Positions 721 to 21,250 of a stretch of DNA of 21,684 nt are shown here, piece after piece. Below the pieces are notes generated by a model. The model searched no databases and had not been told where the DNA came from. It worked only from the letters and a program-made list of their open reading frames with translations. This DNA is from a virus. Location of the stretch: IMG/VR virus record IMGVR_UViG_3300045988_103300, positions 1-21,684 of that record, one strand, 5' to 3'. A program made the translations under genes and the position numbers. Position 1 is the first letter of the stretch. Each line of letters opens with the position of its first letter.

Positions 721-1047
721 TTAATCCAAGTATTTATAAACTATATCTATTAGTTTGGTAATCATATCTTTAATTAGAATCATACAATCCTTTATAACTG
801 GAGTCATAAATGCAATTAAAGCAATATATGCAATCATTAAGAAGCTTAATTGTCCAGTTACTAAGATATATAGTAAACTTGCCCACCAAGTGCAGCATAG
901 AGAACATCCAAATAAAGGTATAGACCAATCAGTATATTTAACTCCAGGATATAGTTTACTTCATACCCATCTATTTGCCTTGTCCATAGCTCCAGATAAA
1001 TCAATACAGAAGACAAGAATAATAGCTATAAAAAGTATGCTTAACAT
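721..1047 (-). CDS. Integral membrane protein, DUF1360-like, with in-frame TGA (108 aa)
   Basis: Not on the ORF track because of TGA at 961-963. ATG 1045-1047, TAA 721-723. Hand translation: MLSILFIAIILVFCIDLSGAMDKANRWV-W-SKLYPGVKYTDWSIPLFGCSLCCTWWASLLYILVTGQLSFLMIAYIALIAFMTPV... It has several hydrophobic helices and a PLFGC..C..W motif resembling DUF1360 membrane proteins. The plus-strand ORF 755..1069 is its antisense shadow. Confidence 0.6.
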
Positions 1048-1286
1048 AACCTCTCTCTTATTTGTTTAATAAATCTCTGAATAGTCGTATGACTAATTCC
1101 CAGAATCTTCCCAACTTCTCTATAACTTCGATATTCAGCATATAAGATAATTATAGTCTTATCTGCTCTATTTAATGCCTCTCATTTTGGATAAATTGAA
1201 AGTAATCTATCATCCATCTCTGTAAAGGTATCTATTTCAAAGTTATACTCAATTAATAAATCATCAATATTAATCTTCTGCTTCAT
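1041..1286 (-). CDS. Sigma-70 region-4-like HTH protein, with in-frame TGA (81 aa)
   Basis: Not on the ORF track because of TGA at 1182-1184. ATG 1284-1286, TAA 1041-1043. Hand translation: MKQKINIDDLLIEYNFEIDTFTEMDDRLLSIYPK-W-EALNRADKTIIILYAEYRSYREVGKILGISHTTIQRFIKQIRERLC. The segment L..ADKTIIILYAEYRSYREVGKILGISHTTIQRFI fits the ECF/sigma-70 region 4 (LuxR-like HTH) pattern. Confidence 0.55.
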
Positions 1287-1578
1287 TTAACCAATCCTCT
1301 AAATTATCCGTTTGTTGTTCTAATGGCTCTTTAAATATCTCATAGTACTTTTTATATTGGTAGTAGTATCTACTATTCTTTGAAAACCAATTATTCTTAA
1401 ATACTCTTGTAATCCAATACTTCAGCTCATTCTTACTATCTAATGACTGAAGCTTGGAATTAGATGTTTCCAGAAGTGCAATGCAGACCATTTGTGTGCA
1501 ATCGTCATCTGCACCAAATTTTTCTTTTAACTCCATAATAAACGGATAGTATTTCTCTATTATTTCATTGTTATTCAT
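1270..1578 (-). CDS. Sigma-70 region-2-like protein (102 aa)
   Basis: ATG 1576-1578, TAA 1270-1272. The segment DDDCTQMVCIALLE...ELKYWITRVFKNNWFSKNSR resembles ECF sigma region 2 (acidic-Q-x-hydrophobic ... W-hydrophobic-x-x-hydrophobic-x-x-N-x-x-x-x-x-x-R). It lies directly upstream of, and overlaps by 17 nt, the region-4-like ORF. Confidence 0.45.
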   Translation of the reverse strand: MNNNEIIEKYYPFIMELKEKFGADDDCTQMVCIALLETSNSKLQSLDSKNELKYWITRVFKNNWFSKNSRYYYQYKKYYEIFKEPLEQQTDNLEDWLNEAED

Positions 1579-2062
1579 ATTCCCAAATAAACCCTCCAGC
1601 TGTTTTTCGCTGACCTTTAAGAACTTTTACAATGTTTCTGGATTGTATATTAAGTCCCCGTTCAGCATCTATTGCGGAATCTCATCTCTTAATCAAACTT
1701 CCATCTAATGATAGCTGTCTAATTGCTTTCTTATGAGAAATTCCTACTTTAATATTATGACTGCCATAATTATTGTTATATTCATAAGTACAGTACTCTA
1801 AATTATCTAAGTTATTATTTAGCTTATTTTCATCCTTATGGTTAATACATAAGTCACTTTTACCTATGAAAACTTCTGCCACTAGTCTATGTATTAGATA
1901 TTTCTTTTGCCCAAACTGATTATATAAAGTAACATAATAATATCCACTATTTTGGAGTTGAGGTTTGATATTTTTCGGAACTGAGGTTCTAGTACTCCAG
2001 ACCGAACCGTCAGTTCCTATTAAATAGTTTTCATATCCAGGTATTGCCTTATATGTCGTCAT
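1571..2062 (-). CDS. HNH homing endonuclease with C-terminal HTH tail, in-frame TGA (163 aa)
   Basis: ORF-track 1682..2062 stops at TGA 1682-1684. Read-through continues 36 codons to TAA 1571-1573: ...LIKR-W-DSAIDAERGLNIQSRNIVKVLKGQRKTAGGFIWEYE. This is the typical DNA-binding tail of phage homing endonucleases (..RKTAGGF.W.Y). The N-terminus YKAIPGYENYLIGTDGSVWS is NUMOD4-like. HNH core: HRLVAEVF...INHKDENKLNNNLDNLEYCT..YN. Confidence 0.85.
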
Positions 2063-2916: not shown

Positions 2917-2962
2917 AATTTATAAAGTTTAATTGTTAATATTATGTCTTACTTTCATAGTA

Positions 2963-2994
2963 CAAATATACAACAAAAAATTCATATTTCCAAA
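2963..2994 (-). promoter_or_regulatory. Leftward Bacteroidota-type promoter candidate
   Basis: On the minus strand, TTTG (complement of 2991-2994), then 20 nt, then TATATTTG (complement of 2963-2970). This matches the Bacteroides consensus TTTG-N19-21-TAnnTTTG. It lies about 45 nt upstream of ATG 2916. Confidence 0.55.
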
Positions 2995-3052
2995 TATTTT
3001 ATGCATTTTTTCAAAAAAAATATTACTATTTGTATTTTTTAGTGCTAAAAAT

Positions 3053-3083
3053 TTTGTAGATTAAAAAATTATTCTTATATTTG
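3053..3083 (+). promoter_or_regulatory. Rightward Bacteroidota-type promoter candidate 1
   Basis: TTTG 3053-3056, 19 nt spacer, TATATTTG 3076-3083. Confidence 0.45.
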
Positions 3084-3132
3084 TGGTGTGATAATAAAAA
3101 TACAATTTTAAATAAAAATAATGCTTAAATTA

Positions 3133-3164
3133 TTTGGAGATTGAGAAAAATTGTTGTATATTTG
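3133..3164 (+). promoter_or_regulatory. Rightward Bacteroidota-type promoter candidate 2
   Basis: TTTG 3133-3136, 20 nt spacer, TATATTTG 3157-3164. The -7 region is identical over 20 nt to that of the leftward promoter. Confidence 0.5.
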
Positions 3165-3238
3165 TACTATCAAACTAAAACTACTTCCATATTGAAAATT
3201 GAGCTGGGATTAATTTCCAGTTTAATTTTAACCTTTAC

Positions 3239-3289
3239 TGTAACTTTTTTACTAATATTTTGTAGTAAGATAAATAAAAAAAGTTACAT
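3239..3289 (+). promoter_or_regulatory. Conserved 51-nt element, copy A (TGTAAC-N39-GTTACA)
   Basis: Sequence: tgtaacttttttactaatattttgtagtaagataaataaaaaaagttacat. It ends 33 nt upstream of the helicase-like ATG. 42 of 51 positions are identical, without gaps, to copy B at 21200-21250. The terminal arms are inverted repeats. Confidence 0.6.
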
Positions 3290-3322
3290 ATAAAATTTAT
3301 TAACTTATTAAAAATTACTATT

Positions 3323-5041
3323 ATGAAAACTTATTTAAATAATTTAATCAATGAATTACCTACTAACTGCTTATTTGACAAAGGTAAAGTAGGATGTGGT
3401 GGAACTTCAATGGCTTTAGAGTGTGATAAGCCTTATGTTATATGTGTTCCATTTGTAAGCTTAGTTGAGAATAAACTTGCTCAATATCCTAATGAAAGAC
3501 GTAAAGAGCCTATTTTTGGAGTTTATCAAGGTATTACTAAGACAGACATTGAAGCTTATGTATCTTCAGTTAAATGCCCTAAAATCATTGTTACTTATAA
3601 TTCTCTTTATAAAGTAATAGAAGCGGTAAATCCTAAAGATTATAGCCTATTAATTGATGAATATCATATACTATTTAATCAATATAGTCTTAGAAGAGAC
3701 GCAATTAAAGATGTATTAAAGACATATAGCTTATTTAAAGAATATACATTTATGACTGCTACTCCCTTAGAAGATGAATTTGTTTTAGATGAATTGTCTA
3801 AACTGCCATTAGTAAGACAAGAATGGGATGATGTTATCGAGACTAAAGTTCAGACTGTCAAATGCAAGAATGTAGAAGCTTCCACAATTAAGCTTATAAA
3901 TGGATTTTTAAGTGGGAATGTTGAAGGTAATGCTTATATATTTGTTAACTCTGTTGACTTTATAAAGAATCTTATTTTAAAGGCTAAACTTACAGCAGAT
4001 AACACAAGAGTAGTATATTCTAAGAATAATAGAACTAAACTGCCAATTCAGAATTCTTCAGTAAATGATGAACCTAAGAAGATTAATTTGTTGACTTCTA
4101 CTGTATTTGAAGGTTCTGATATTTATGATGAAAATGGAAGAATTATTGTAGTTAGTGATTCCTCTAAAGCTCAGACTCTTTTAGATATATCTACTTCAAT
4201 TCAACAGATTGCTGGTAGAATTAGAAATAGTAAATATTTAAATTGGATTACTCATCTTTATTCAGCCACAAGATATGCAGAGATAGATTATGATACATTT
4301 AAAAATAATACATTAAAGAATATTGAAGAAACAAAGATTGCAGTTGAATCATATAATCAGCTTCCAGAAGTAGCTCGTAAGAAGATTACAGACTTTACAA
4401 GTGACACATATATTCAAATTAATGAGGATTATACCTTTGAATTTGACCCAAATATGGCTAAAGTAGATATATTCAATTTTAAGGTTGCAAGAGGTTTATA
4501 CTCTGTAAGAGTTAATCTTACTAATGAATATCTAAAGAATGGCTTTATAAAGGTTGCTGAATGTGAAGATAAATCTATTAAGATAGACCTTGAAGCTCCT
4601 AGTAAGTCATTTCAGGAGCTTATTAAAGATGTAAGAGCTGAATGGGAAACTAAATTTAAAGTTGGAACTCCTATATTAAATGAAGCTCTAATTAAATATC
4701 CTTGGTTAAATGATGCAATTAATAAACTGGGATTTGAAAGAATGGCAACTTTGGGTTATTGCATTAAAGATATTAAAGAGGAGCTTGTTAAAATATCAGA
4801 TAAAAATATGCCAAATAAGGTTGCCAAATTACTTACAAGAGATATTCAGAATGGTATGTTCTACAATTTAGCTTTATTAAAGAATAAGATTGCTGATGTA
4901 TATAAGACTTTAGGTATAAAGAAAACTGCAAAGGCAACAGATATTGAACACTATTTTGAAGTTAGAAAATCAACTAAAACTGAAAAGGATGTTAGAAGCA
5001 AAGGATACATTATTATTAGACCAAGATTCATATTTAAATAG
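3323..5041 (+). CDS. SF2 (DExH-type) helicase-like ATPase (572 aa)
   Basis: ATG 3323, TAG 5039-5041. It has a P-loop-like GKVGCGGTS near the N-terminus, a Walker B/DExH box (LLIDEYH) and a motif III-like FMTATP. All 4 Trp codons are TGG. It is the only long plus-strand gene. Confidence 0.6.
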   Translation: MKTYLNNLINELPTNCLFDKGKVGCGGTSMALECDKPYVICVPFVSLVENKLAQYPNERRKEPIFGVYQGITKTDIEAYVSSVKCPKIIVTYNSLYKVIEAVNPKDYSLLIDEYHILFNQYSLRRDAIKDVLKTYSLFKEYTFMTATPLEDEFVLDELSKLPLVRQEWDDVIETKVQTVKCKNVEASTIKLINGFLSGNVEGNAYIFVNSVDFIKNLILKAKLTADNTRVVYSKNNRTKLPIQNSSVNDEPKKINLLTSTVFEGSDIYDENGRIIVVSDSSKAQTLLDISTSIQQIAGRIRNSKYLNWITHLYSATRYAEIDYDTFKNNTLKNIEETKIAVESYNQLPEVARKKITDFTSDTYIQINEDYTFEFDPNMAKVDIFNFKVARGLYSVRVNLTNEYLKNGFIKVAECEDKSIKIDLEAPSKSFQELIKDVRAEWETKFKVGTPILNEALIKYPWLNDAINKLGFERMATLGYCIKDIKEELVKISDKNMPNKVAKLLTRDIQNGMFYNLALLKNKIADVYKTLGIKKTAKATDIEHYFEVRKSTKTEKDVRSKGYIIIRPRFIFK

Positions 5042-5483: not shown

Positions 5484-5517
5484 AAAAGGAGGGTTATTTG
5501 CCCTCCTTTTCTTTTTT
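5484..5517. terminator. Bidirectional rho-independent terminator between convergent units
   Basis: Perfect 10-bp stem: aaaaggaggg (5484-5493), loop ttatttg, ccctcctttt (5501-5510). It is followed by a T-run on the plus strand and preceded by an A-run (a T-run on the minus strand). It sits between the plus-strand stop at 5480 and the minus-strand stop at 5519. Confidence 0.85.
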
Positions 5518-5518
5518 A

Positions 5519-6088
5519 TTAAACATATCTTCACTTGAATCCTTTAGCTGTATTTGCTAATCCACCACATACTCTACTAATAGCTCCTCTATCAGTTCCT
5601 ACAGATTTGGCTGCTTCTGTGCAACTTTCATACTCTTGAATAAAATTACCATCTAAATCATACTGAGCTACTTTACGACATCTTTGTTTGTTATGAGCAT
5701 CTACTTTATCTCTTCAAGATTCTGGGCAATTATGTTTCTTTCCCTTATTAGAATTAGACAGTTTCTTCTTTCATTCAGAATTAAATTTGACTCCGTAATT
5801 GCCTCCTTCTCCTCCAGGTTTCAAATTTAAACACATAGGATCAGTGTCCCATTTATCTCCAATTAGTTTGTATTCTAATTTAGATAATTCATCTGCATTA
5901 GTGCAAGTTGCCAAAATAATCTTTTGGTATGCATTAGGGAATCTTTTGTAATAATTAGTAATAATCCTTCCTGATCCTTTATATGGATCTTTATTTATGT
6001 CTTTACCTCTATAAATCCTTTTCCCAATATAATACTTGCCTCTTAATGTACCTGCAGTTAAAATTATTTTATAACAATAGTAAAACAT
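5519..6088 (-). CDS. GIY-YIG homing endonuclease with three in-frame TGAs (189 aa)
   Basis: ORF-track 5771..6088 (YCYKI...GKYYIGK...YKGSG GIY-YIG core) stops at TGA 5771-5773. Read-through gives ...KFNSE-W-KKKLSNSNKGKKHNCPES-W-RDKVDAHNKQRCRKVAQYDLDGNFIQEYESCTEAAKSVGTDRGAISRVCGGLANTAKGFK-W-RYV, ending TAA 5519-5521. The extension has NUMOD3-like basic repeats and the classic ..GF.W.Y tail. TGAs are at 5771, 5714 and 5531. Confidence 0.85.
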
Positions 6089-6540
6089 TATATAATAGTA
6101 AATTTCTGTCGTCTTTGCATCCCGTCTTTATTCTTTAATCCCAAGTGTATTCAACTTGCTATACCATTCTTAGGCTTTTCATATATCAACTGGTCTCAAT
6201 TTAATTCTTCAATAGCTTCAGCAATCCAACTTTGGAATACTTTCATATTACCATTAATTGGAGATATATCTGCTGCATACCCTGTTAAATGAGCAGAAGT
6301 TGAAGATCCTCCTACTGCTTTATTAAGCTCCTTATTTCTAAAACCAGAGGAAATCCTGATGCCTGCGTTACCAAGCTGATTGTCATCACAATACTTTGCC
6401 CATCTCTCTCTTATTGGGTCTAAAAGCTTCTCGACCAACTCTATCAGGTGCTCTGTTATACTCTCATCTGGAGTGTTATCTATATGCTTAATTGAAGCAG
6501 TATCAGATCTTGTTAATTCTTCGAGTGTGAAATACTTCAT
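6088..6540 (-). CDS. Endolysin, Peptidase_M15 (zinc D-Ala-D-Ala carboxypeptidase-like) family, two in-frame TGAs (150 aa)
   Basis: ORF-track 6196..6540 carries SSGFRNKELNKAVGGSSTSAHLTGYAADI (SxGxR..N...GG...S.H..G.A.D, M15 metal/active-site pattern) and stops at TGA 6196-6198. Read-through gives ...IEELN-W-DQLIYEKPKNGIAS-W-IHLGLKNKDGMQRRQKFTII, ending TAA 6088-6090. This restores the family's C-terminal ..DQLI.e.....W(I/V)H.. block. Confidence 0.8.
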
Positions 6541-7786: not shown

Positions 7787-8476
7787 TTACTTACTCTTTT
7801 TATTGTTACTTGAAGGAAAATCATAAGCTCTTTGAAGAGGCCCCTCTCCAGGTTTAATGCTCCATCCTTTACCTCTTGCTCCACCAAGCCAAATATTGCA
7901 AGATGAGCTAGAGTAAAGATTGGGAAACATATCCTTTAATGGCTTATATGTATAAAGCTCAGGGAATTCGTTATAATATGTAATTATAAAGTCCTGTAAA
8001 CGAGTCTTAAAGAAATCCGCCTTATCTCTATAATACTTCTTAATTTGATTTACTTGACTTGCTTCAGCAGCAATATCTTTCTCATCATCAGTTCTCATAA
8101 CTCCAAAATTACCAAGCTTATAAGATATAGGAATTACTATCTCGCTAAGTACTTGATAAAGTAAATAAGGCTGAACATAATAGTCTAATAGCTCTTTATA
8201 TCTGTAGTTATCAGAATCATCAATAGAATCACTTGGAAGTGGCTCAGGAGGTTCTATTGGATGAACTGGAGTATGAGGATCAATCCAATTAATACATTTC
8301 TTTTGTAATGCTTCCAATAGCTTAGTACCAATAGTTGACTGAAGTTCTACATCTTGGGCACTTGTGATGGCTGCTTGTAAATATTTACCCGATATATTGT
8401 TATCTAATGTAGAATTTGACTTTATATAGTCTTCTGAAATAAGCAGTACATTTCTATAGTTAAGTTGTTCCATCAT
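7787..8476 (-). CDS. Possible head-tail connector (gp6-like) protein (229 aa)
   Basis: The N-terminal pattern ISEDYIKSNSTLDNNISGKYLQAAITSAQDVELQSTIGTKLLEAL resembles the start of gp6-like head-tail connector/DNA-packaging proteins. It is located after the portal. Weak assignment. Confidence 0.35.
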   Translation of the reverse strand: MMEQLNYRNVLLISEDYIKSNSTLDNNISGKYLQAAITSAQDVELQSTIGTKLLEALQKKCINWIDPHTPVHPIEPPEPLPSDSIDDSDNYRYKELLDYYVQPYLLYQVLSEIVIPISYKLGNFGVMRTDDEKDIAAEASQVNQIKKYYRDKADFFKTRLQDFIITYYNEFPELYTYKPLKDMFPNLYSSSSCNIWLGGARGKGWSIKPGEGPLQRAYDFPSSNNKKSK

Positions 8477-9068
8477 AAATAAATTTATTGTTTTTATAAG
8501 GTCTATTTTCTTTTAAAGCTAAATATAATCCAGAACGTTCTCCATTAACTGATTTAACAGCTTCTTTCATTGAATTATATCTTGCAATAAAATTCCCATT
8601 CATATCAAATCTTAATATAGGCTTAACTCTAGTAATTCGTCCTTTGGAAGCATTTCCAATTTTAATAAGTGTTTCCAAAGTATAGATTCCTTTCTTTCCT
8701 TTATTCCAGGGTGTTTTACCTTTTTTAGAATTTGACATTTTTGCTCTACTCTCATTAGAAAAAGAATACCCGTATGTACCTTCTCCTCCTGATGTTATAT
8801 TGTAACCATTTTCAGGAGTATTTGTTTTATATTTATGTATCAATATCCTTTCTAATGTCTTAGCACAAGCTTCTGGTAAATTATCTTTAATTATGATATG
8901 TTCAAATCCATCTCAGCTATATTTTTGTATCGCTTTATAAAAGTAAGCTTGAGTAGAGTATCCATATCCATTTTTTCACCTAGCTTGCACACTTTGTCCA
9001 GTAATGCCAAAATATAGCTTATTGTTATACTTATTTATATGGCAATAAACAGTATAATTATTCAACAT
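8460..9068 (-). CDS. GIY-YIG homing endonuclease with two in-frame TGAs (202 aa)
   Basis: ORF-track 8460..8843 begins on TTG and lacks the catalytic domain. Extending upstream through TGAs at 8913-8915 and 8976-8978 to ATG 9066-9068 gives MLNNYTVYCHINKYNNKLYFGITGQSVQAR-W-KNGYGYSTQAYFYKAIQKYS-W-DGFEHIIIKDNLPEACAKTLERILIHKYKT...GYNITSGGEG. This is a complete GIY-YIG domain followed by NUMOD3-like basic repeats. TAA 8460-8462. Confidence 0.85.
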
Positions 9069-10149
9069 TTTGTTTGCTATCTTCTTGTCCATTTGGAGTT
9101 AAGCTAAAAGGAGTTATAGTTATTGAACCTTTCATTCCAAATATCTTATCAAATGTATCTACTATTTCGACCTGAATTGGTCTAACTACTGTACGATTAT
9201 AAAGTTTAAAAGCTTCATTAAATTCTTGTTCGTTGAATCCACTTGAGTAGTTAAGGCCAAAAAGTACACTATTAGCTCTAAATGCGCAGAATATCTGTTC
9301 TCTTGTCCTATCAGATAAAGCACTATATTTCTCATCAAAATCATCAGAGTCTAAACGCTCAATAGTAGTCTTATTTGTTTCATCATCATTATATGAAATA
9401 AGAACTCTACCAGCATTTTGAAATCCTGAGAATTTCTCATTAATATTCATCTCAATCTCTTCTTTAACTTCGTCTGTAGGCTGTCCATTATTAAAGTTAA
9501 TGATAAGATTGCCCATAAATCCGTTATGAAGAGAATTTAGATGAAACTCATTAATATTCTTCTCAGTTTCGCAAGATAGGATAGCTGCACCATAAACAGG
9601 GACTGGATATACTTTTCTTGTTATATAGCCCTTATTATAAACAACACTTGTAGGATTATCATCTGAATAATTAAATTTTGGATATTTGATAGCTTTAATA
9701 GACCAAGCAGACCAATCATCGGCATAATAGAATACTTCATTCTTTTCATCAGAACGAATCTTCATAAAGTCAAGATGATATATTTCTGAAACTCTACCTA
9801 CCATATCTCTAATTATTTGTAAAGCATATCCTCCAAAAATCATCTTATCTTTAGATACTTTACGCATAATATCCATAATAGTCTCACCTTTCTTATTTAC
9901 AGTTACTTCAAATCCTGGTGCATTACATACAACATCATTACCAACAATAAAGTCAGCAGTCCCATTAATGATAGATTGAAGAGTAGCTACATTTAAGTAT
10001 AAATCCCATAGATATAATGGATAGCGATTATCTTCACCCCAAGAAATCCAATCAGAACCCCTTTTTCTCGATTCTACAGGAAGTACTAAATTTGACACTA
10101 CAACAGGATCAATTGCACTTAATTGTACTTTTGTTTTATTTTCGCTCAT
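9058..10149 (-). CDS. Portal protein (363 aa)
   Basis: ORF-track 9058..10206 starts on TTG; the likely start is ATG 10147-10149 (MSENKTKVQ...). Portal-family features: ..WISWGEDNRYPLYLWDLYLNVATLQSIINGTADFIVG.., ..MIFGGYALQII.., ..FLGLNYSSGFNEQEF.. All 5 Trp codons are TGG. Confidence 0.75.
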   Translation of the reverse strand: MSENKTKVQLSAIDPVVVSNLVLPVESRKRGSDWISWGEDNRYPLYLWDLYLNVATLQSIINGTADFIVGNDVVCNAPGFEVTVNKKGETIMDIMRKVSKDKMIFGGYALQIIRDMVGRVSEIYHLDFMKIRSDEKNEVFYYADDWSAWSIKAIKYPKFNYSDDNPTSVVYNKGYITRKVYPVPVYGAAILSCETEKNINEFHLNSLHNGFMGNLIINFNNGQPTDEVKEEIEMNINEKFSGFQNAGRVLISYNDDETNKTTIERLDSDDFDEKYSALSDRTREQIFCAFRANSVLFGLNYSSGFNEQEFNEAFKLYNRTVVRPIQVEIVDTFDKIFGMKGSITITPFSLTPNGQEDSKQNVE

Positions 10150-10600: not shown

Positions 10601-10629
10601 ATAAAAATAGGGAGAATAGAATCTCCCTA
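10601..10629 (-). terminator. Rho-independent terminator after the 323-aa LRR gene
   Basis: 8-bp stem: tagggaga (10608-10615), loop atagaa, tctcccta (10622-10629). On the minus strand it is followed by TTTTTAT (complement of 10601-10607). Confidence 0.75.
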
Positions 10630-10635
10630 AATTTA

Positions 10636-11607
10636 CTATGCAGAAGCTAATGTTCAGTTCTTAGATGTAGCTAAAGCTTTTTGTTCTTCTGTAAGAGCAT
10701 TATAAACTGCAGAATTAAATGTAATAGTTTGTGTAGAAATTCCAGTTAAATCTGACACTGCTTCTAGAACATTATCAACTGAACTAGACGTTAATGAAGG
10801 AAGATTAGCTAAAGTAAATGACTTACTTGTAACTACACCTCCGAATTCTGTTAATTCAGTTAGCCAGTATGAACTTCCAAATGTATAGCCAAAAGCTGTG
10901 GAGTTTAATGAATTATTAGGAGATATAGTTATTTTGCCTAAAGATTTTAATTTTTTACAATATGTAAACATCTGATTTGTTTGACCAGTACAGTTTGGAG
11001 CGTAAATATCTGGAATGGTTTCAATTGATCCACAATAATTGAAAATGCCAGAAAGAGAAGTTGCTATAGAAAAATCCATATTTGGTAAAGTAAGCAAACT
11101 ACTACATTTACTAAAAGTTTGAAAATATTGAGATAATTTTAAATTTGCATCTATTTCAACTAAATGTTGGCAGTTATAGAAAAGTTGACTACCTTGAGTA
11201 TGGGTACTATTTAATAATATTATTTTATGTATTGCATTACTGCTAGAAGTAGTATAAAACATATTATTCATATTTTTCCCTTGGCAATCAAATGTGAATT
11301 CATCATTTTCAGACCATTCACATCCGTAGAAAAAATCAGCATAAGAAGATTTATTTAGTATAAAATAATCCTCCAATTTTAATTCCCCACCATCTCTAAA
11401 TTGATGCATATTAGAATATCCTAATGATAATGGAATAATACTTAAATCAATTTTACCTCCACCTCCAGAAATCTGTCCTATCTTATCTGCATAGCTTCTA
11501 AAGGTATCTGAATCCGATACAGCAACACCTTTAGCTACAATAGCATCTTTAATGGCACTCTTAGTACCTTCAAGATACGTTAATTTATCAGAAATTGTAT
11601 TTGCCAT
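10636..11607 (-). CDS. BspA-type leucine-rich-repeat tail/receptor-binding protein, in-frame TGA (323 aa)
   Basis: ORF-track 10654..11607 stops at TGA 10654-10656. Read-through gives ...EEQKALATSKN-W-TLASA, TAG 10636-10638. The N-terminus (LTYLEGTKSAIKDAIVAKGVAVSDSDTFRSYADKIGQI) is typical of phage LRR fibre proteins. Repeats of the F..C..L type are present (FYGCEW.., FYNCQHLVEI, FSKCSSLLTL, FNYCGSIETI, FTYCKKLKSL). Confidence 0.7.
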
Positions 11608-11608
11608 A

Positions 11609-12130
11609 TTAGATATATTTAAATTTTACCCCTTTATAAGTGTCTGTTCTTCCTTTAAGACAATCTATAACTCTACTATGAGTATACCCATCTATTGATG
11701 TTTCAATTGCATTTTTATATGTTTTAACTAGTAAATCATTAATAAATAGCCCTACAGGTTTACTAATTTTATCAATACATCTATTTATTCTAGTTCCATA
11801 TGTATTATTATACTTTGCATCACATCATTCTAAATTTTCTACCCTATTATCTGTCTTATTTTCATTTATATGGTTAACATATGGTAGATTGTCAGGATTT
11901 GGAATAAATGCTTCTGCTACTAGTCTGTGAACTTTAATAGCTTTAGGTTTATCTAAGCCAGATACTAGAATTACATAATTATAGCCATATTTATCTATAT
12001 GCTGTTTTAGCTTTTTATGTATTTGTTTTCTGGTTCTTCCAATAGAATCTTTAAAAGTCAATGGGTTACTATATACATCTCCTGTAGAAGATACACTATA
12101 GTTAGGATAATTTGTTAATACTCTATTCAT
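11609..12130 (-). CDS. HNH homing endonuclease, in-frame TGA in the HNH core (173 aa)
   Basis: Likely start ATG 12128-12130 ([26 protein letters not shown]4-like). ORF-track 11825..12208 stops at TGA 11825-11827. Read-through gives ...[92 protein letters not shown] 11609-11611. NLEW is the conserved HNH_3 motif. Confidence 0.85.
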
Positions 12131-12737
12131 TTGGAATTTCACCATTAATTGTATCAAGAGTAGTTGAGATATTACCAATCTGAGCTTGAATTGCTGAGAT
12201 TTCTCCATCTAACTCTGTCATCTTTGTATTATATGCATCTGTAGTTACATAGCTTGATAATTCACTTTTATCTGCTTTAAGTGCAACTTCATCTTTAGTA
12301 GCTAATCCAGATACATCAGGAATCTTATTCTCTACAGCTGTAAGCTCTTCTTTAGTAGCAAAATCCTCAGTACTTGGAATATCTGCCTTGAGAGCATAGT
12401 TAGAAAGATCAATAGATAGATGTAAATCTTCACCCTCTCTATTAAATGACATAGGAGAGTTTACTTGAAATACTTCCATCTTAGATGTTTCTAATTCAGT
12501 AATATCATTCTTAATTGGCTCTAACTTAGGTTCAAGTATAACATCCAACTGAGAATTAATTTGCTCATCAATTATTTCAACAGCCTTATCTTCGGAAATG
12601 TAATTACCTTTAGGTTGAAATCTGGCATCTGCTTCAATCTTTGTATAAGAACCAACTGGAAGCTGAGCTGTCTCAATACCACATTTCTTACTAACATAGA
12701 AGGTCTGAGTATTCTTAGTATTCTTTAATATAATCAT
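12123..12737 (-). CDS. Tail-fibre-like protein, short paralogue (204 aa)
   Basis: ORF-track start 12764 is TTG; the first ATG is 12735-12737. TAG 12123-12125. It shares low-complexity fibre segments (..[48 protein letters not shown]..) with the central part of the 741-aa fibre. No Trp. Confidence 0.55.
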
Positions 12738-12967: not shown

Positions 12968-13810
12968 TTAGTATGTTACTGACCAGCCTTTACTGGTGAT
13001 TTGTGATTTTTGTTCCTCTGTTAATGAATTATATACAGTTTGATGAAATTTGATTATTAAATTTCTATCTGTAGTATATAATCCATCTATAACATTATCT
13101 ACTGACTGACTCGTTAATACTGGTAATTTTGATAACTTTAATATTTCTATGTTAGTGCTTTTCCCTATATTAGTAAACCCTCCTAAATCTGTCAAATAAG
13201 AAAAAGGCCCAGAAGCAAATATATTTTGGTAATCCTGTCACTTTTCTGCATTATATCTAGGAACAGATTCTAAAGCTATACATCCTCTAAACATATTTTC
13301 AACACTTATAGCATTATCCATATTTATATTAGGAGCATTTTTTAAAGATGAGCATCCGTCAAACATATTGTAAAAAGCTATAGCTGTTGTGCCATTAATA
13401 TCTGGTACAGATACTAATGATGAGCAGTTTTGAAATGTTTGCCCAAGATGTACAAAATTTGATAGTATATTGGGAACTATTTTTAAATTTGTACATCCAT
13501 AAAATAAACCATTTGCTGCTCCTTTATTTGCGTTTGGAAAATAGGTCATATCGGATACATCCTCAATAGAAGTGCTTTCGAATATACTATTATTACCTTT
13601 ATACCAACTATTTACTGTATTTGCATCACAATCAGTAATTTCAGTCTGTCCTGGAAATATATTATCTATAACTAATTGCTTAAATTCAGTACTTTTAAAT
13701 ACTATAGGGGAGCAAATATTACTAGGCCAGACTTTGGTACTGCCAACATAAATAGCAGTACCTTGTCTGTCACCTACATAAAATGTTTTTAAATCATCTC
13801 TAATATTCAT
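12968..13810 (-). CDS. BspA-type LRR tail/receptor-binding protein, fusion of two track ORFs across TGA (280 aa)
   Basis: ORF-track 13238..13810 ends at TGA 13238-13240. ORF-track 12968..13195 is in the same frame and begins on TTG. The joining sequence is ...RYNAEK-W-QDYQNIFASGPFSYLTDLGGF... The fused protein has the same architecture as the 323-aa paralogue: LRR units FYGCTNLKIV, FQNCSSLVSV, FDGCSSLKNA, FRGCIALESV, then a C-terminal LSKLPVLTSQSVDNVIDGL...LTEEQKSQITSKGW module. Confidence 0.75.
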
Positions 13811-16038: not shown

Positions 16039-16272
16039 TTATTCTATATGTTTAGGTTTTAAACTCATCTCTTTAAGTTCAAGGTATTCTTTATGCTGTT
16101 CCTCTGTAATTACCCTATAGACAGATAAATCTGCATTTAAAGGGCAGTACATTAGTGTTGAGGCTGTATAAAACTTGATATTATCTCCATCAGTATATTT
16201 AGTAACATAATATCCTTTATCAGTATATACCTTGATAAAAACGTCTGTTTGTGTTATATGTAAATGTTCCAT
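16039..16272 (-). CDS. Small protein, paralogue of 12745..12966 (77 aa)
   Basis: ATG 16270-16272 shares one base with the TAA of the 500-aa LRR gene. TAA 16039-16041. The motif ..MYCPLNADLSVYRVITEEQHKEY.. matches ..CICPLDCDLTHLREISLEQDRIY.. of the 73-aa protein. Confidence 0.55.
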   Translation of the reverse strand: MEHLHITQTDVFIKVYTDKGYYVTKYTDGDNIKFYTASTLMYCPLNADLSVYRVITEEQHKEYLELKEMSLKPKHIE

Positions 16273-17774
16273 TATGCAAGAATCCAGTTTTTATTAGTAG
16301 CTATTGCTTTCTGTTCATCTGCTAGTTTAGATAAATGAGACTCTCCTAATACTAATGTATATTGAGTATCTCCAGTTCTATCTTTAAGTGCATCTAAAAT
16401 AGATACTAATGAGTCTATAGTTAGAGCTTCAAGACCTAAACTAAAATCAAGATAATCAGCATCTAAAGTTCCAGTTAAAGTAATAGTAGTAAGATTTGGG
16501 CAATCACTAAAAATAGCTCCTCCCATAGTTAATCCAGAAAAGTTGGTAGTTACTGTTGTTAAACTTTGGCAACTTCCAAACATTCCTCCTGCAGATTGTA
16601 CTGAAGAAAGGTCTATATTCCAAGAACTTAAAGTAGTATTTTGGAACATACCATCTGCCTCAATTAGTGCAGGTAACTCTATATTCCAATTACCAATAGA
16701 AGTATTCCAGAACATCATTTTTCCATTAGATAAAACTGGCAACGAATAACCCCAATCTGTTCAACCTACTCTTAAACATTGACTAAACATTTCTTCTGCA
16801 TTAACTAATCTACTTGTATCAAGTATAGGATTTTCTAATAGACCACAATTAGAAAACATACCTCTTGCTTCAACTAATATAGCATTTAATGTTATAGACT
16901 TTAATTTATTACAGTTAGCAAACATATAATCGCCATTAGTCATTTTAGGTGTACTTGCAGTAAAAGAAGTTAAACCAGTAAATCCAAACATATTATTTCC
17001 AGATGTTAATTCTGGCATATCTATATTGAACGAGGTTAACGCACTATCTCCATTAAACATTCCAGCTCCATTCTGTAAATTAGGAAGCTCCTTAGTAAAG
17101 GATGTTAACTGAGGACAACTTTGTAATATTCCTTCTCCATTAGTTACATTAGTAAAATCGAAGCCTTCAGGAACTTCAGTAAACTCACTACCTTGTAGTT
17201 TAATTTTATTTGCTGCTACGTCAATACTTCCTCCAGTTGGCACATTAACAGTTACATCAATAAACTCCATATAATCATATCCATCTGCAGGATGAATCAT
17301 TGTAGTTCCATTCTCTGTAATAGTAACTTCTCTATGCTCCTCAATTGGAATCTCTACATCTACTTCAATACTTGATAAACCTTGATAGCCAGCATCAGGT
17401 TTAACTTCAGTCATTGATAGGTTTTTATCTATTGTTATATGTTTCTCTTGTAAAGTAGGAGTTGGTACTGGAACATTTATTTGTGCAGAAACCTTCTCCA
17501 TAACATCATAATCTGGATCAGGTAAAATATCTATTAATCCATTAGATGTAATTGCAATCTCTTTAGTAGATTGTACTGTGGGAACAACAACATCAACAGA
17601 TACATTTACTTTCGACATACCATCATAACCCTCATCTGGAGTTACAACGAACTCAGCATTCTGAGTATATTCTACAGATTTCTCCTGTAATTTACATTCT
17701 TGAGCAGCTAAAGCTTCAATATCTCTTGAAGTTGTATTCTTTGCTACTTCTGGTGTTGTATATTTAATAGCCAT
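16272..17774 (-). CDS. BspA-type LRR tail/receptor-binding protein, fusion of two track ORFs across TGA (500 aa)
   Basis: ORF-track 16761..17774 ends at TGA 16761-16763. ORF-track 16272..16742 is in the same frame and begins on TTG. Junction: ...MFSQCLRVG-W-TDWGYSLPVLSNGKMMFWNT..., in mid-LRR array. The N-terminus has four ~38-aa tandem repeats. There are LRR units on both sides of the TGA (MFANCNKLKSITL, MFSNCGLLENPIL | MFGSCQSLTTVT, IFSDCPNLTTITL) and a C-terminal ..LADEQKAIATNKNWILA module. Confidence 0.8.
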
Positions 17775-17809: not shown

Positions 17810-17848
17810 TAAACAAAATAAGGGGCAAGTAAATTAATACTCGCCCCT
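17810..17848 (-). terminator. Rho-independent terminator after the tube-like gene
   Basis: Stem: aggggcaagta (17821-17831), loop aattaa, tactcgcccct (17838-17848), with one mismatch. On the minus strand it is followed by TTATTTTGTTT (complement of 17810-17820). Confidence 0.7.
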
Positions 17849-17857
17849 CTTCTGTTG

Positions 17858-19348: not shown

Positions 19349-19960
19349 TTAACCAATAAAGTTTTTAAGCTTTTTATCAATAACAGGATTACCAGTCATT
19401 ATTGAAGCTTTGCCTTCTATCTGTTCCTCAGCTGAAAATGCAGCACTCATTTTGCTCATCTTTTCAACCGTCTTTTCTGTAGCTTCAGATTTACCCTCTA
19501 ATTCAGCTACTTTCTTAACAAGCTTATCAACAATGTCATAAAGCTCATTAATTTCGCGATGAATTGCATCAATTGCATCAGTTACAGTTTCTTTATCTCC
19601 ATCAGTAGCTACTTCAGGATCAACTGGCTCTTCAGCAGTTTCTACCTTGCGTTTTCCACAAGCAGCATCAACTTCTGCTTTAGCTGCTTCTTCTGGATCA
19701 ACTTCAGCTTTTGGATCAGTAATGGACTCTACTTTACCGTCTTTAACAACAATAGTTTTGCCATCTTCGGTAACATACTCACCATCAGCAGCAGGTGCAT
19801 ATTCTCCAGTATCAGTATCCATTGTATATACACTCATACCTGCCCTTAGATCCTCATCCTCACTACCATCGTAAGTTAGAACTCCAGCACTAGTCTTAAC
19901 ATCGTTAAATTTTGCTAAGAGTTTACTAAGTTCGATTCTCAGTTTAGTTAATTTGTTCAT
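19349..19960 (-). CDS. Scaffolding protein (203 aa)
   Basis: A highly acidic, Ala/Glu/Lys-rich helical protein (..INELYDIVDKLVKKVAELEGKSEATEKTVEKMSKM..) directly upstream of the capsid gene. No Trp. Confidence 0.6.
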   Translation of the reverse strand: MNKLTKLRIELSKLLAKFNDVKTSAGVLTYDGSEDEDLRAGMSVYTMDTDTGEYAPAADGEYVTEDGKTIVVKDGKVESITDPKAEVDPEEAAKAEVDAACGKRKVETAEEPVDPEVATDGDKETVTDAIDAIHREINELYDIVDKLVKKVAELEGKSEATEKTVEKMSKMSAAFSAEEQIEGKASIMTGNPVIDKKLKNFIG

Positions 19961-20555
19961 ACTTAAATTTAAAATTTTTATGATAGTTTTGTTTATTTTT
20001 GCAACATTTTATAATAGCACTATGATCAAAATTTCCGTTTCTTTCAGCGTCCATAGCAGATTTCCAAGTGCATATATAAGTATCATTAATATCTGTCATA
20101 ATTATACGTTTACTTACTTTTTCTTTCTGCTGTTCAGTTTGTTTAGTTCCTAATCTACATTCTCTTAACTTTAATTTTGTTTCATCCTTTAATACTCTTC
20201 CAGACTGTTTTAAAGACATTTTGTGTTTAGATTCTTCACTGTGTTTAAATCCAGTATTAGAACCTCCACCTTCATTTAAATTATAACCATTATTTAATGT
20301 ATCAAATAACTGAATATATTTAATTTCTGCATTATTTAGTTGTCTTTTCAATAATTCTGTAGAAGAACAACAAAAGATTTGAAGAATTTCCCATTTAAAG
20401 TTATTGAATTCATATTTCCTAATCGCTCTATGAAAATATGTAAGATTAGAACTGTATTTATGTTCATTCTTTCTTCTCAAGAAATTATTTGTTTGTCCTA
20501 CATATTTATTGCCATTTATAAGATTTGTTGCTAGATATATAACTCCACTATACAT
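19944..20555 (-). CDS. GIY-YIG homing endonuclease (203 aa), no TGA
   Basis: GVIYLATNLINGNKYVGQT...RRKNEH...AIRKYEFNNFKWEIL...E..YI.....NGYNLNEGG is a complete GIY-YIG domain. It is followed by NUMOD3-like repeats (HSEESKHKMS, LKDETKLKLRE, QTEQQKEKVSK) and a C-terminal DNA-binding tail. It is inserted between the protease and scaffold genes, overlapping the scaffold start by 17 nt. Confidence 0.85.
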   Translation of the reverse strand: MYSGVIYLATNLINGNKYVGQTNNFLRRKNEHKYSSNLTYFHRAIRKYEFNNFKWEILQIFCCSSTELLKRQLNNAEIKYIQLFDTLNNGYNLNEGGGSNTGFKHSEESKHKMSLKQSGRVLKDETKLKLRECRLGTKQTEQQKEKVSKRIIMTDINDTYICTWKSAMDAERNGNFDHSAIIKCCKNKQNYHKNFKFKYEQIN

Positions 20556-21199: not shown

Positions 21200-21250
21200 T
21201 GTAACCTTTTTACTCATATTTTGTAGTTAATAAGAATAAAAAAGTTACAT
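21200..21250 (+). promoter_or_regulatory. Conserved 51-nt element, copy B (ATGTAAC-N37-GTTACAT)
   Basis: Sequence: tgtaacctttttactcatattttgtagttaataagaataaaaaagttacat. 42/51 positions are identical to copy A (3239-3289), same length and same orientation. It lies in the 112-nt gap between two minus-strand virion genes. Confidence 0.6.

What the first reader, a model, noticed from the sequence alone, without database searches (positions are those of the whole stretch)
3239..3289. Conserved 51-nt element present twice, 18 kb apart (3239-3289 and 21200-21250)
Copy A is tgtaacttttttactaatattttgtagtaagataaataaaaaaagttacat. Copy B is tgtaacctttttactcatattttgtagttaataagaataaaaaagttacat. They are the same length, in the same orientation, and identical at 42/51 positions without gaps by hand alignment. 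Both are bounded by inverted arms TGTAAC/GTTACA (7 bp, ATGTAAC/GTTACAT, in copy B). Both contain ATTTTGTAG, whose TTTG lies exactly 20 nt upstream of GTTACAT. That is a host-like -33 box combined with a non-host box at the -7 position. A third ATTTTGTAG at 3051-3059 provides the -33 box of a canonical promoter. The element could be a phage-specific promoter class (possibly read by the phage sigma-like protein), an operator for a dimeric regulator, or a conserved RNA leader/hairpin.
Basis: seen in the sequence. Interest (0 to 1): 0.7.

Follow-up and report, generated by a model that had tools for sequence, protein, structure and literature searches.

The report
Repeated hairpin cassette in a phage

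Summary
Observation confirmed: copies at 3239-3289 and 21200-21250, 42/51 identical, far beyond chance. The window is about two thirds of a ~31-kb uncultured phage that reads TGA as sense and has Bacteroidota-type promoters. Near-identical genomes carry a third copy (C, inverted) outside the window and often a fourth (D), which the window has lost. Sister lineages have four or five copies. The outer arms change between lineages but stay complementary (TGTAAC/GTTACA, TGTCAA/TTGACA, TGAGGG/CCCTCA, CCTTACA/TGTAAGG and others). A T-tract/A-tract clamp and two interior boxes persist. The ancestral copy lies behind a terminator-like hairpin, in front of an SF2-helicase gene, in diverse phages and Bacteroidota prophages. 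The extra copies lie 1-10 nt after stop codons. Different arm types coexist in one genome, and arm type does not track the phage's sigma-region-4-like HTH protein. So it is a selected hairpin, not a -33/-7 promoter or a dimer operator. Most likely mechanism (about 0.4): a hairpin in transcripts at gene boundaries. Rivals: a DNA hairpin used by the adjacent helicase for replication (about 0.25), a promoter cassette (about 0.15), a selfish palindrome (about 0.1). No Rfam match.

The parts
3239..3289 (+). Copy A of the hairpin cassette (site A, the ancestral site): arm TGTAAC, T6, interior ACTAATATTTTGTAGTAAGATAAAT, A7, arm GTTACA(T). It ends 34 nt before the helicase ATG.
   Evidence: The same position and orientation are found in all lineages and in distant relatives. 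RNA fold -10.7 kcal/mol, z = -3.3.
21200..21250 (+). Copy B (site B): same element, arm TGTAAC(C), right arm GTTACA(T). It lies 9-10 nt after the TAG stop of the tape-measure-like gene (stop at 21260-21262, minus strand) and 52 nt before the ATG of the XkdF-type protease gene (21147, minus strand). The leftward mRNA therefore carries its reverse complement.
   Evidence: As RNA the reverse-complement strand folds at -17.7 kcal/mol (z = -7.4), against -9.9 for the forward strand. Site B is kept in all lineages with lineage-specific arms.
3204..3229 (+). Terminator-like hairpin (CTGGGA ttaat TTCCAG) plus a T-rich run (TTTAATTTT), 9 nt upstream of copy A. Relatives have a stronger GC hairpin here (GGCAGG tgaaaat CCTGCC ACTTTTT).
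   Evidence: Read from the sequence and from relatives. The consensus terminator scan did not flag the window's own version.
3323..5041 (+). 572-aa SF2 (DExH) helicase-like gene. It is one of the few rightward genes, has no in-frame TGA, and is the gene the element is ancestrally linked to.
   Evidence: Motifs GCGGTS, LLIDEYH, MTATP and QQIAGRIRN are visible in the translation. The family has 673+ members and one hit carries PF13307. It is mostly found in Bacteroidota genomes. There is no Pfam, PHROG or PDB sequence hit for the window protein itself.
2963..3164 (.). Cluster of three full Bacteroidota-type promoter matches (TTTG-N19-20-TAnnTTTG): leftward 2994->2963, rightward 3053-3083 and 3133-3164. 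These are the only such matches lying in intergenic DNA of the composite genome. The other three hits lie on the + strand inside leftward genes and are probably chance.
   Evidence: 6 matches in the composite genome against 1.6 expected, three of them here. The 31-nt inverted repeat 2946-2976 / 3151-3181 (I2) is the shared core of the divergent pair.
10608..10629 (.). Empty site D. A bidirectional GC hairpin terminator sits between the 323-aa and 130-aa genes. In near-identical genomes (085915, 100074) and in all lineage 2/3 genomes, a fourth copy (TGTCAAGTTTTTTACTCACTCAAAGTACTAAGAAAAAATAAAAACTGACA) lies beside this hairpin. The window has none.
1041..1286 (-). 81-aa HTH protein (HTH_50; borderline sigma-70 region 4), the only sigma-like candidate. 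It was tested as a possible reader of the arms and does not co-vary with them.
   Evidence: A homologous small protein in relative L233 carries a recorded Sigma70_r4_2 hit.

Best explanation
The repeat is a copy of a T/A-clamped hairpin cassette. It consists of a 4-10-nt arm of free sequence, a run of 5-7 T, a 20-45-nt interior with two conserved boxes, a run of at least 5 A, and the complementary arm. In this clade the boxes read TTTTTACTCA and GTAnTAAGA. In relatives they read ..TGAAAT.. and ..TATAAAGA/TATAGA... The ancestral copy sits behind a terminator-like hairpin and just upstream of an SF2-helicase gene in many Bacteroidota phages and prophages. In this ~31-kb phage clade it has been duplicated to two to four further intergenic junctions. 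It acts by forming the hairpin, not by presenting two promoter hexamers or two operator half-sites. My preferred mechanism is that the hairpin forms in the transcripts that cross it and marks gene boundaries. At site A it would be a structured 5' leader of the helicase message. At sites B, C, D and E it would be a hairpin starting 1-10 nt after a stop codon. There it would protect or define the 3' end of the upstream cistron, or serve as a double-strand-specific processing site, much as RNase III sites do in T7 or REP hairpins do in E. coli operons. What is shown: the repeat, its distribution, arm covariation, its positions, and the predicted stability. What is inferred: that RNA is the folding molecule, and that the effect is on processing or stability.
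For: The stem is selected. About 19 arm versions were listed, all but one perfectly self-complementary. Each left arm pairs with its own right arm at a mean of -4.7 kcal/mol, against -0.7 with other arms. The Mann-Whitney p is 3.9e-5, and 0 of 20000 permutations reach the observed value. Such hairpins are enriched upstream of helicase homologs: 8/24 viral loci against 0.013 expected per locus, and 8/56 bacterial loci against 0.009. Different arm types coexist in one genome: in lineage 1, copies A, B and C are TGTAAC-armed and D is TGTCAA-armed, and 134784 is a mosaic. So the arms matter as partners of each other. For position, C, D and E start 1-2 nt after a stop codon and B starts 9-10 nt after. 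C and D lie between the stop codon and the GC terminator. At B, C (lineages 2-4), D and E, the strand present in the local mRNA is the better-folding one: -8 to -17.7 kcal/mol with z down to -7.4, against -1 to -10 for the other strand. Copies can flip (C in lineage 1), be lost (D in the window) or be gained (E in lineage 3) between close relatives. That fits a modulatory structural element. There is no Bacteroidota promoter consensus inside the element.
Against: RNAalifold finds no consensus structure on the MAFFT alignments in either orientation. Lineage-3 and lineage-4 versions of copy A fold no better than shuffles in the mRNA sense, with z about 0. At site A the mRNA would carry the opposite strand of the element from the one carried at B-E. 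Yet box 1 (ACTCA) is nearly invariant at all sites. An RNA-binding factor could not read both strands, although on the reverse-complement strand box 1 can pair with box 2 through G.U pairs. A terminator-like hairpin directly precedes copy A in nearly all lineages. In this clade only 30-34 nt separate the element from the ATG, so the helicase message may start inside the element, in which case the hairpin could not form in that RNA. A generic boundary hairpin does not explain the tight, universal linkage to the helicase gene. There are no transcript data.
Confidence: 0.4

Rival explanations
1. A DNA hairpin (single-stranded or cruciform) serves as a replication signal read by the adjacent SF2 helicase. 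It could be an origin, a helicase-loading site or a primosome-assembly-type site. This would be analogous to the ~55-nt n'-pas hairpin that the SF2 DExH helicase PriA recognises in phiX174, and to the ssi signals of plasmids (comparison from general knowledge). The copy next to the helicase gene would be the primary site and the dispersed copies would be additional priming or loading sites.
For: The element is linked to the helicase gene over 30-54% protein identity in phages and Bacteroidota prophages. A cis site next to its initiator gene is a common arrangement. The stem covaries while the loop boxes keep their sequence whatever the local transcription sense. That is what a DNA-level, strand-specific recognition predicts. 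In every complete lineage-2 genome the four copies are on the same DNA strand and fairly evenly spaced: 7.5, 9.5, 9.4 and 5.7 kb in 073522. A/T tracts flank the interior. The phage encodes no recognisable primase or polymerase among the genes scanned.
Against: Copy E (lineage 3) and copy C (lineage 1) lie on the other strand. Distant relatives have only one copy, or two in tandem. Copies D and E are dispensable. The helicase has no detectable similarity to PriA or to any solved structure by sequence. Nothing is known about this phage's replication mode.
Confidence: 0.25
2. A promoter cassette. The interior boxes form a non-canonical promoter, dependent on a phage or host factor, that starts the helicase transcription unit behind an upstream terminator. 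This would resemble the composite terminator-promoter PeSL cassettes of T4-type phages. The arms would allow supercoil-dependent cruciform extrusion or would be incidental. The extra copies would fire antisense or primer RNAs.
For: The architecture terminator-like hairpin, then element, then helicase ATG is conserved. In this clade only 30-34 nt lie between the element and the ATG, so there is no room for another promoter. An A/T-rich TAnAnA box (TAAGAT, TATAGA, TATATA, TATAAA) lies 11-13 nt before the right arm in many lineages. The orientation at site A never changes. PeSLs show that repeated promoter-plus-stem-loop cassettes exist in phages (PMC2839356, PMC4122927).
Against: There is no match to the Bacteroidota TTTG/TAnnTTTG consensus that the same phage uses 100-250 nt upstream. 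The distance from the T-tract or box 1 to box 2 is not fixed across lineages, ranging from 7 to 12 nt and more. Arm covariation is unexplained by a simple promoter. At B, D, E and C (lineages 2-4) it would fire into the 3' end of a convergent gene. No phage sigma factor could be demonstrated, and the HTH variants do not track the element.
Confidence: 0.15
3. A selfish or neutral repeated palindrome, a REP- or MITE-like element. It spreads by recombination or an unknown transposase into safe intergenic spots beside terminators, with no function for the phage beyond serving as a substrate for module exchange.
For: It has terminal inverted repeats. It shows presence/absence and orientation polymorphism between close relatives. 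Mosaic genomes have arm types that follow the local module. It sits beside terminator hairpins.
Against: No target-site duplication is visible at any copy (flanks). No transposase was seen in the genes scanned. The site-A copy is retained in the same place and orientation across very distant relatives, while the surrounding intergenic DNA has diverged beyond recognition. The interior boxes are conserved at every site. This argues for purifying selection.
Confidence: 0.1
4. An operator bound by a symmetric dimeric regulator, with one monomer on each arm and the DNA bent by the A-tracts.
For: The arms are perfectly symmetric and change in the same way on both sides. A-tracts could bend the DNA. 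A small HTH protein is encoded nearby.
Against: Copies with different arms coexist in one genome. About 19 arm versions would each need a matching protein. The recognition-helix variants of the 81-aa HTH do not correlate with arm type. Half-sites 44 bp apart are atypical.
Confidence: 0.04

Closest known systems
REP (repetitive extragenic palindromic) elements of enterobacteria
   Same: They are short (35-50 nt) imperfect palindromes repeated in intergenic DNA. They often lie just after stop codons or between cistrons, occur in either orientation, are transcribed as hairpins that shape mRNA 3' ends and stability, and are polymorphic between strains (general knowledge).
   Different: REPs occur in hundreds of copies in bacterial chromosomes, are GC-rich, and are mobilised by RAYT transposases. 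Here there are only 3-5 copies in a phage, the element is AT-rich with a T/A clamp, the ancestral copy is tied to one gene (the helicase), and no transposase was seen.
PeSL (promoter-early stem-loop) cassettes of T4-type phages (PMC2839356, PMC4122927)
   Same: They are repeated intergenic regulatory cassettes in phage genomes that combine a stem-loop with promoter-like sequence. They sit at module boundaries and act as recombination points that shuffle modules. In this clade, too, mosaic genomes carry arm types that follow the local module.
   Different: PeSLs contain a consensus host sigma-70 promoter and point with the genes. This element has no host (Bacteroidota) promoter consensus, and most copies point against the flanking genes. 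PeSL stem-loops are poly-G/poly-C terminators, whereas here the paired arms enclose the conserved core.
RNase III processing sites of phage T7 (R0.3, R0.5, R1 and others)
   Same: They form a family of ~50-60-nt related hairpins repeated in intergenic regions of one phage. One lies in the leader before the first gene and the others lie between cistrons. They define and stabilise message ends (general knowledge).
   Different: All T7 sites lie in one transcriptional sense and have a characteristic internal loop at the cleavage site. Here site A and the other sites present opposite strands to the mRNA. No cleavage data exist, and the stems are only 10-20 bp of mostly A-U pairs.
Primosome assembly / single-strand initiation hairpins (phiX174 n'-pas, plasmid ssi) recognised by the SF2 helicase PriA
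   Same: They are ~50-nt intergenic hairpins with structure-dependent recognition, functionally coupled to an SF2 DExH helicase and strand-specific (general knowledge).
   Different: No homology between this helicase and PriA was detected. The phage is a tailed dsDNA phage. Two copies break the strand rule. No replication data exist.
ECF-sigma promoters with a TGTAAC/TGAAAC -35 box (for example B. subtilis sigma-X and sigma-W)
   Same: The left arm TGTAAC is identical to the sigma-X -35 motif (recalled from memory), and GTA lies about 17 nt downstream.
   Different: The motif is replaced by unrelated arms in relatives, always together with its complement. There is no CGT-type -10 box. No ECF sigma is encoded: the 102-aa protein has no sigma fold and the 81-aa HTH does not co-vary with the arms.

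Membership tests
Bacteroidota primary-sigma promoter | -33 TTTG and -7 TAnnTTTG separated by about 19-21 nt | tested here: not met
   A regex scan of the composite genome finds the consensus three times in 2963-3164 but not in any copy of the element. The TTTG inside copies A and B is not conserved in copy C or in other lineages.
   Both boxes vary. GTTACAT co-varies with the left arm. Copies B, D, E and C (lineages 2-4) point antisense to the flanking genes.
ECF-sigma-dependent promoter | A cognate sigma factor (regions 2 and 4) encoded or available, with a -35 AAC motif and a -10 CGT motif at fixed spacing | tested here: not met
   The 81-aa HTH is borderline for Sigma70_r4_2 at 25.2 against 25.7 bits. 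The 102-aa neighbour has no Pfam, PDB or Foldseek sigma match. The arms are replaced by non-AAC sequences in relatives.
Operator of a symmetric dimeric regulator | All sites in one genome share the half-site sequence read by one protein | tested here: not met
   TGTAAC-armed and TGTCAA-armed copies coexist in 085915, 100074 and 134784. HTH variants do not track arm type.
Intrinsic (Rho-independent) terminator | GC-rich stem with a short loop, followed directly by a U-run | tested here: not met
   The stem is mostly A-T with a 20-30-nt interior. The T-run is inside the stem, not after it. The terminator scan did not call it, whereas separate GC hairpins beside the element were called at 5484-5510, 10608-10629 and 17820-17849.
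Conserved nucleic-acid hairpin (structured cis element) | Base pairing maintained by compensatory substitutions across relatives | tested here: met
   About 19 arm versions were listed, all but one perfectly complementary. In the partner-swap test, 0 of 20000 permutations reached the observed value. Enrichment over background is more than 10-fold. Caveat: RNAalifold on MAFFT alignments gives no consensus structure.
Any Rfam family | Covariance-model match at or near the gathering score | tested here: not met
   There were no hits at gathering threshold in the window, L011 or L023. The E-value scan of 3120-3340 gave only chance miRNA hits, 19 and 17 bits against gathering scores of 70 and 90.
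REP-like repeated extragenic palindrome | Multi-copy, intergenic, hairpin-forming, variable orientation; associated RAYT transposase | tested here: inconclusive
   The first four features are met. No transposase-like gene was seen among the genes scanned. Copy number is only 3-5.
PeSL-type promoter/terminator cassette | Host-consensus early promoter plus terminator stem-loop; flanks shuffled modules | tested here: inconclusive
   The adjacent GC hairpin is present at sites A, C and D. Mosaic genomes exist. The host-consensus promoter is absent. Promoter activity is not testable here.
MITE / small transposable element | Terminal inverted repeats plus a target-site duplication; cognate transposase | tested here: not met
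   TIR-like arms are present, but no direct duplication flanks any copy (flanks). The arms differ between copies in one genome.
RNase III processing site | About two turns of dsRNA in a transcript, cleaved by RNase III | not testable with these tools
   Predicted stems of 12-20 bp form on the mRNA-sense strand at sites B-E. Cleavage cannot be tested computationally.
Primosome-assembly / ssi hairpin | Single-stranded DNA hairpin bound by a helicase that then recruits priming | not testable with these tools
   A hairpin and an adjacent SF2 helicase gene are present. Binding and priming cannot be tested. There is no sequence similarity to PriA.

The most novel reading that the evidence does not exclude
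The hairpin is a DNA-level signal for the neighbouring orphan SF2 helicase. That would make it a phage-encoded counterpart of the PriA/pas system, in which a helicase recognises a structured ~50-nt hairpin to start or re-prime replication. The 3-5 dispersed copies would act as extra origins or priming sites in a small Bacteroidota phage that has no polymerase or primase of its own. This would define a new helicase-plus-hairpin replication module that is widespread in Bacteroidota phages and prophages.
Probability: 0.22. Interest if true: 0.8.

Novelty: new variant of a known kind. Interest (0 to 1): 0.58.

Why it matters
Regulatory and replication signals of Bacteroidota phages are almost unknown, although these phages dominate the human gut virome. 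This element gives a concrete, easily recognised cis-signal: an arm, a T-tract, a two-box core, an A-tract and the complementary arm. It is tied to a large orphan helicase family (673+ members, mostly in Bacteroidota) and has comparative support for base pairing. It can be searched for in thousands of genomes and tested directly by end-mapping, helicase binding and reporter assays. It also marks module junctions in a clade of mosaic, TGA-recoded ~31-kb phages, so it may explain how their modules are exchanged. If the replication reading holds, it would reveal how small phages without a polymerase or primase start DNA synthesis.

Tried and rejected
(1) Megablast of the whole window against INPHARED found no match. 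tblastn of the helicase found only hits of about 30% identity, annotated hypothetical or 'DEAD-like helicase'. So no annotated relative is available to borrow from.

(2) I suspected a split ECF-type sigma, with the 102-aa ORF as region 2 and the 81-aa ORF as region 4, and TGTAAC as its -35 box. The 102-aa protein has no Pfam or PHROG hit and no PDB profile hit. Its AlphaFold model (pLDDT 77) has no Foldseek match, best E = 7. Its homologs are always separate ORFs of about 100 aa. The idea was dropped.

(3) I at first thought all copies within a genome share the same arms, implying a co-evolving protein. The fourth copy D and the mosaic genomes overturned this.

(4) I thought all copies are co-oriented with the helicase gene. 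Copy E in lineage 3 and copy C in lineage 1 overturned this as a strict rule.

(5) RNAalifold on forward and reverse-complement alignments gave an empty consensus. A column-wise pair count was abandoned because one-nucleotide bulges shift the register. It was replaced by the partner-swap duplex test.

(6) Strand asymmetry of folding (the reverse complement more stable through G.U pairs) is intrinsic to the element in this clade. It is absent in distant relatives, so it does not settle which strand is functional.

(7) I considered sigma-70-like use of TTGACA (the right arm in lineage 2) as a -35 box. No conserved -10 follows at 16-18 nt. Rejected by inspection.

(8) I considered similarity to Cas12a-type repeats (TACT..GTAG) and to geminivirus-type nick sites (TAATATT). 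The motifs are not conserved among copies. Rejected by inspection.

(9) ARAGORN and Rfam found no tRNA or known RNA.
Full report
**1. The observation**

They are 42/51 identical without gaps.

TGTAAC-N30-50-GTTACA and the core TTTTTACTNATATTTTGTAGT each occur exactly twice in the window. About 0.03 matches are expected, and 0 of 100 dinucleotide-preserving shuffles gave two. The pair is the longest direct repeat in the window.

TGTAACyTTTTTA pairs with TAAAAAAGTTACA, giving 12-13 bp.

**2. What genome this is**

There is no close relative in GenBank phages. IMG/VR holds about 45 contigs of the same clade, mostly 29-32 kb, and one shows a terminal overlap implying a circular or permuted genome of about 31 kb.

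I joined the window to the missing third from the near-identical contig 085915, giving a 32.2-kb composite.

- The rightward genes are the 572-aa gene downstream of copy A and a few small ORFs after it.
- Everything else runs leftward: small early proteins, an HNH endonuclease, an 81-aa HTH, TerS-like and TerL, tail genes, a tape-measure-like gene, an XkdF-type protease, scaffold, major capsid protein, portal and others.
- TGA is a sense codon in most leftward genes, for example 11 in-frame TGAs in one 1118-aa gene. TAA and TAG are the stops. No tRNA is detectable.
- Full Bacteroidota-type promoter matches (TTTG-N19-21-TAnnTTTG) cluster only at 2963-3164: one leftward and two rightward.
- The 572-aa protein has DExH-helicase motifs. 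Its family has 673+ members and lies overwhelmingly in Bacteroidota genomes, so the host is very probably a member of Bacteroidota.

**3.

| Site | Location | Orientation and notes |
|---|---|---|
| A | 34 nt upstream of the helicase ATG | Forward in every lineage |
| B | Between the tape-measure-like gene and the protease gene | Same DNA strand as A in every lineage |
| C | Between a 213-aa gene and a GC hairpin, outside the window | Inverted in lineage 1; same strand as A in lineages 2-4 |
| D | Beside the GC hairpin between the 323-aa and 130-aa genes | Present in 085915, 100074 and all lineage 2/3 genomes; absent from the window |
| E | 1 nt after the helicase stop codon | Lineage 3 only; inverted |

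- Copy C reads TGTAACCTTTTTACTCATATTTGGTACTAAGATAATATAAAAAAGTTACA.
- Copy D has TGTCAAG...CTGACA arms even in lineage-1 genomes. The window retains only the hairpin at 10608-10629.
- I rebuilt nine further genomes. Every complete lineage 2/3 genome has copies at A, D, B and C, all on the same DNA strand as the helicase gene.
- Copy E is described.

**4. The arms pair; they are not read as sequence**

Across lineages the arms change but remain complementary. In this clade they are:

- TGTAAC/GTTACA
- TGTCAA/TTGACA
- TGTCA/TGACA
- TGTC/GACA
- ATGTCTA/TAGACAT

In helicase-linked elements of distant phages and prophages they are:

- TGAGGG/CCCTCA
- TTAC/GTAA
- AATCCTTACA/TGTAAGGATT
- CCTTA/TAAGG
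- CCACA/TATGG (one C.A mismatch)
- CGCAT/ATGCG
- ATGTAG/CTACAT
- CCTATA/TATAGG
- GACGGA/TCCGTC
- GTAAT/ATTAC
- TTCCATA/TATGGAA
- TGGAA/TTCCA

Some of these were found by a detector that demands complementarity. The fair statistics are therefore these:

- Enrichment: 8/24 viral loci and 8/56 bacterial loci have such a hairpin just upstream of the helicase gene. The background expectation is 0.013 and 0.009 per locus.
- Partner-swap test on 12 arm classes defined by position: own-arm duplex mean -4.7 kcal/mol against -0.7 for swapped partners, p = 3.9e-5, with 0 of 20000 permutations reaching the observed value.

Different arm types coexist in one genome. The two recognition-helix versions of the 81-aa HTH occur with either arm type. 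So the arms matter as partners of each other. This excludes a sequence-specific dimer operator and a -35-type box.

**5. What is conserved inside**

A run of 5-7 T follows the left arm and a run of at least 5 A precedes the right arm in every version.

In this clade, box 1 (TTTTTACTCA) is nearly invariant. Box 2 (GTAnTAAGA or GTATAGA) is well conserved among 26 distinct variants from five sites.

More distant versions keep ..TGAAAT.. and ..TATAAAGA/TATAGA.. boxes.

**6. Local grammar**

At site A the order in all lineages is: terminator-like hairpin plus T-run, then 10-20 nt, then the element, then the helicase ATG. The last gap is 30-34 nt in this clade. The window's own upstream hairpin (3204-3229) is weak and was not called by the terminator scan.

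At C and D the element lies between a stop codon and a GC terminator. At C, D and E it begins 1-2 nt after the stop codon, and at B 9-10 nt after.

At B, C (lineages 2-4), D and E the local mRNA carries the reverse complement of the element. That strand folds best:

- Copy B: -17.7 kcal/mol, z = -7.4, against -9.9 for the other strand.
- The same direction holds in about 24 of 26 variants.

In distant site-A elements the two strands fold equally well. RNAalifold gives no consensus structure on either alignment.

**7.

- The -33 TTTG / -7 GTTACAT promoter is refuted by non-conservation, by covariation of GTTACAT with the left arm, and by the antisense orientation of most copies.
- The sigma idea fails. 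Only a borderline sigma-region-4-like HTH exists. The adjacent 102-aa protein has no sigma-like sequence or fold.
- The dimer operator is refuted, as shown in section 4.
- The 'conserved hairpin/leader' option is supported.

**8. Mechanism**

*Shown.* This is a selected hairpin cassette, ancestrally tied to the helicase gene, and multiplied to gene boundaries in this clade.

*Inferred (about 0.4).* It acts in transcripts as a boundary hairpin: a leader before the helicase gene, and a 3' or intercistronic hairpin elsewhere. It would affect processing or stability, as RNase III sites do in T7 or REP hairpins do in E. coli.

The main weaknesses of this reading are:

- the opposite strand sense at site A;
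- the conservation of box 1 regardless of sense;
- the terminator immediately upstream of copy A;
- the unexplained specificity for the helicase gene.

*Rival 1 (about 0.25).* A DNA hairpin recognised by the adjacent SF2 helicase for replication initiation or priming, like PriA and its pas hairpin. This explains the gene linkage, the sense-independent box conservation, and the same-strand, evenly spaced copies in lineage 2. Copies E and C (lineage 1) contradict it.

*Rival 2 (about 0.15).* A PeSL-like promoter cassette (PMC2839356, PMC4122927). This explains the order terminator, element, gene, but not the arms or the antisense copies.

*Rival 3 (about 0.1).* A selfish palindrome.

**9. Novelty**

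There is no Rfam match and no annotated relative. I found no description of this element in the papers read.

It is a new variant of a known kind of feature: a repeated extragenic palindrome or regulatory cassette. It has unusually clear comparative support for its stem and a specific link to an orphan helicase family.

Noticed in passing
window-wide, e.g. 5519-6088, 6088-6540, 8460-9092, 16272-17774 (minus strand); L011 620-3291: TGA is read as a sense codon, most likely Trp (for example ...SAGG[TGA]DSLL...). Most leftward genes contain in-frame TGAs, and adjacent code-11 ORFs merge into single genes under code 4. TAA and TAG are the only stops. The helicase gene has no TGA. No suppressor tRNA is found by ARAGORN or Rfam anywhere in the ~31-kb genome. 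Borges et al. (bioRxiv 10.1101/2021.08.26.457843) detected suppressor tRNAs in only 35% of code-4 phages, so this is a known but unresolved situation.
   Followed up: partly
window 2946-2976 and 3151-3181: A 31-nt inverted repeat, 90% complementary, is the shared core (TTGTTGTATATTTGTACTAT) of two divergent Bacteroidota-type promoters. A third promoter match lies at 3053-3083. The rightward ones are followed after about 35-130 nt by the terminator-like hairpin at 3204-3229, so they may make only a short RNA unless the hairpin is read through.
   Followed up: partly
window 1571-2062, 11609-12208 (HNH); 5519-6088, 8460-9092, 19944-20555 (GIY-YIG): There are five free-standing homing-endonuclease genes in a ~31-kb phage. 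Their presence or absence accounts for much of the length difference from contig 085915. The 87-nt repeat 1764-1850 / 11796-11882 (D2) is similarity between the two HNH genes.
   Followed up: partly
window 1041-1578 (minus strand): A conserved pair of overlapping small ORFs: a 102-aa protein with no detectable homology or fold match, and an 81-aa HTH of sigma-region-4 type. The same kind of pair (73 aa with a Sigma70_r4_2 hit, plus 89 aa) sits near the helicase gene in the distant relative L233. Function unknown.
   Followed up: partly
L256 4221-4266 and lineage-3 genomes 094921, 111924, 105798: In lineage 3 the helicase gene is flanked by inverted copies of the element (A upstream, E downstream). 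In some distant relatives (L233) the helicase gene points the same way as all other genes, whereas in this clade it points the opposite way. Recombination between inverted copies could have flipped the gene.
   Followed up: no
L264 2241-2283 and 2343-2385: A distant relative (47% helicase identity) has two identical tandem copies of its version of the element (TTAC T7 AATTCTGGGTATATATAAAAAATAAAAA GTAA), 102 nt apart, upstream of the helicase gene.
   Followed up: no
IMG/VR contigs 085915, 034549, 080512, 023824, 111621, 170948, 111919: About seven of the roughly 45 clade contigs begin or end within about 400 nt of copy A. That is more than the 2-3 expected for random break points. The cause could be a physical genome end, a pac region, or assembly breaks at a mosaic junction.
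   Followed up: no
IMGVR_UViG_3300045988_175865 (148,631 nt; loci L022, L048, L093, L118, L154, L167): This 148-kb 'viral' contig contains segments of this ~31-kb phage clade with mixed lineage signatures. It is probably a chimeric or concatenated assembly.
   Followed up: no
window 10636-11607, 12968-13810, 16272-17774 (minus strand): Several paralogous tail proteins carry BspA-type leucine-rich repeats and a shared C-terminal motif (...LTEEQK..TSKNW/GW...). The region around them differs most between close relatives and looks like a host-range cassette.
   Followed up: no
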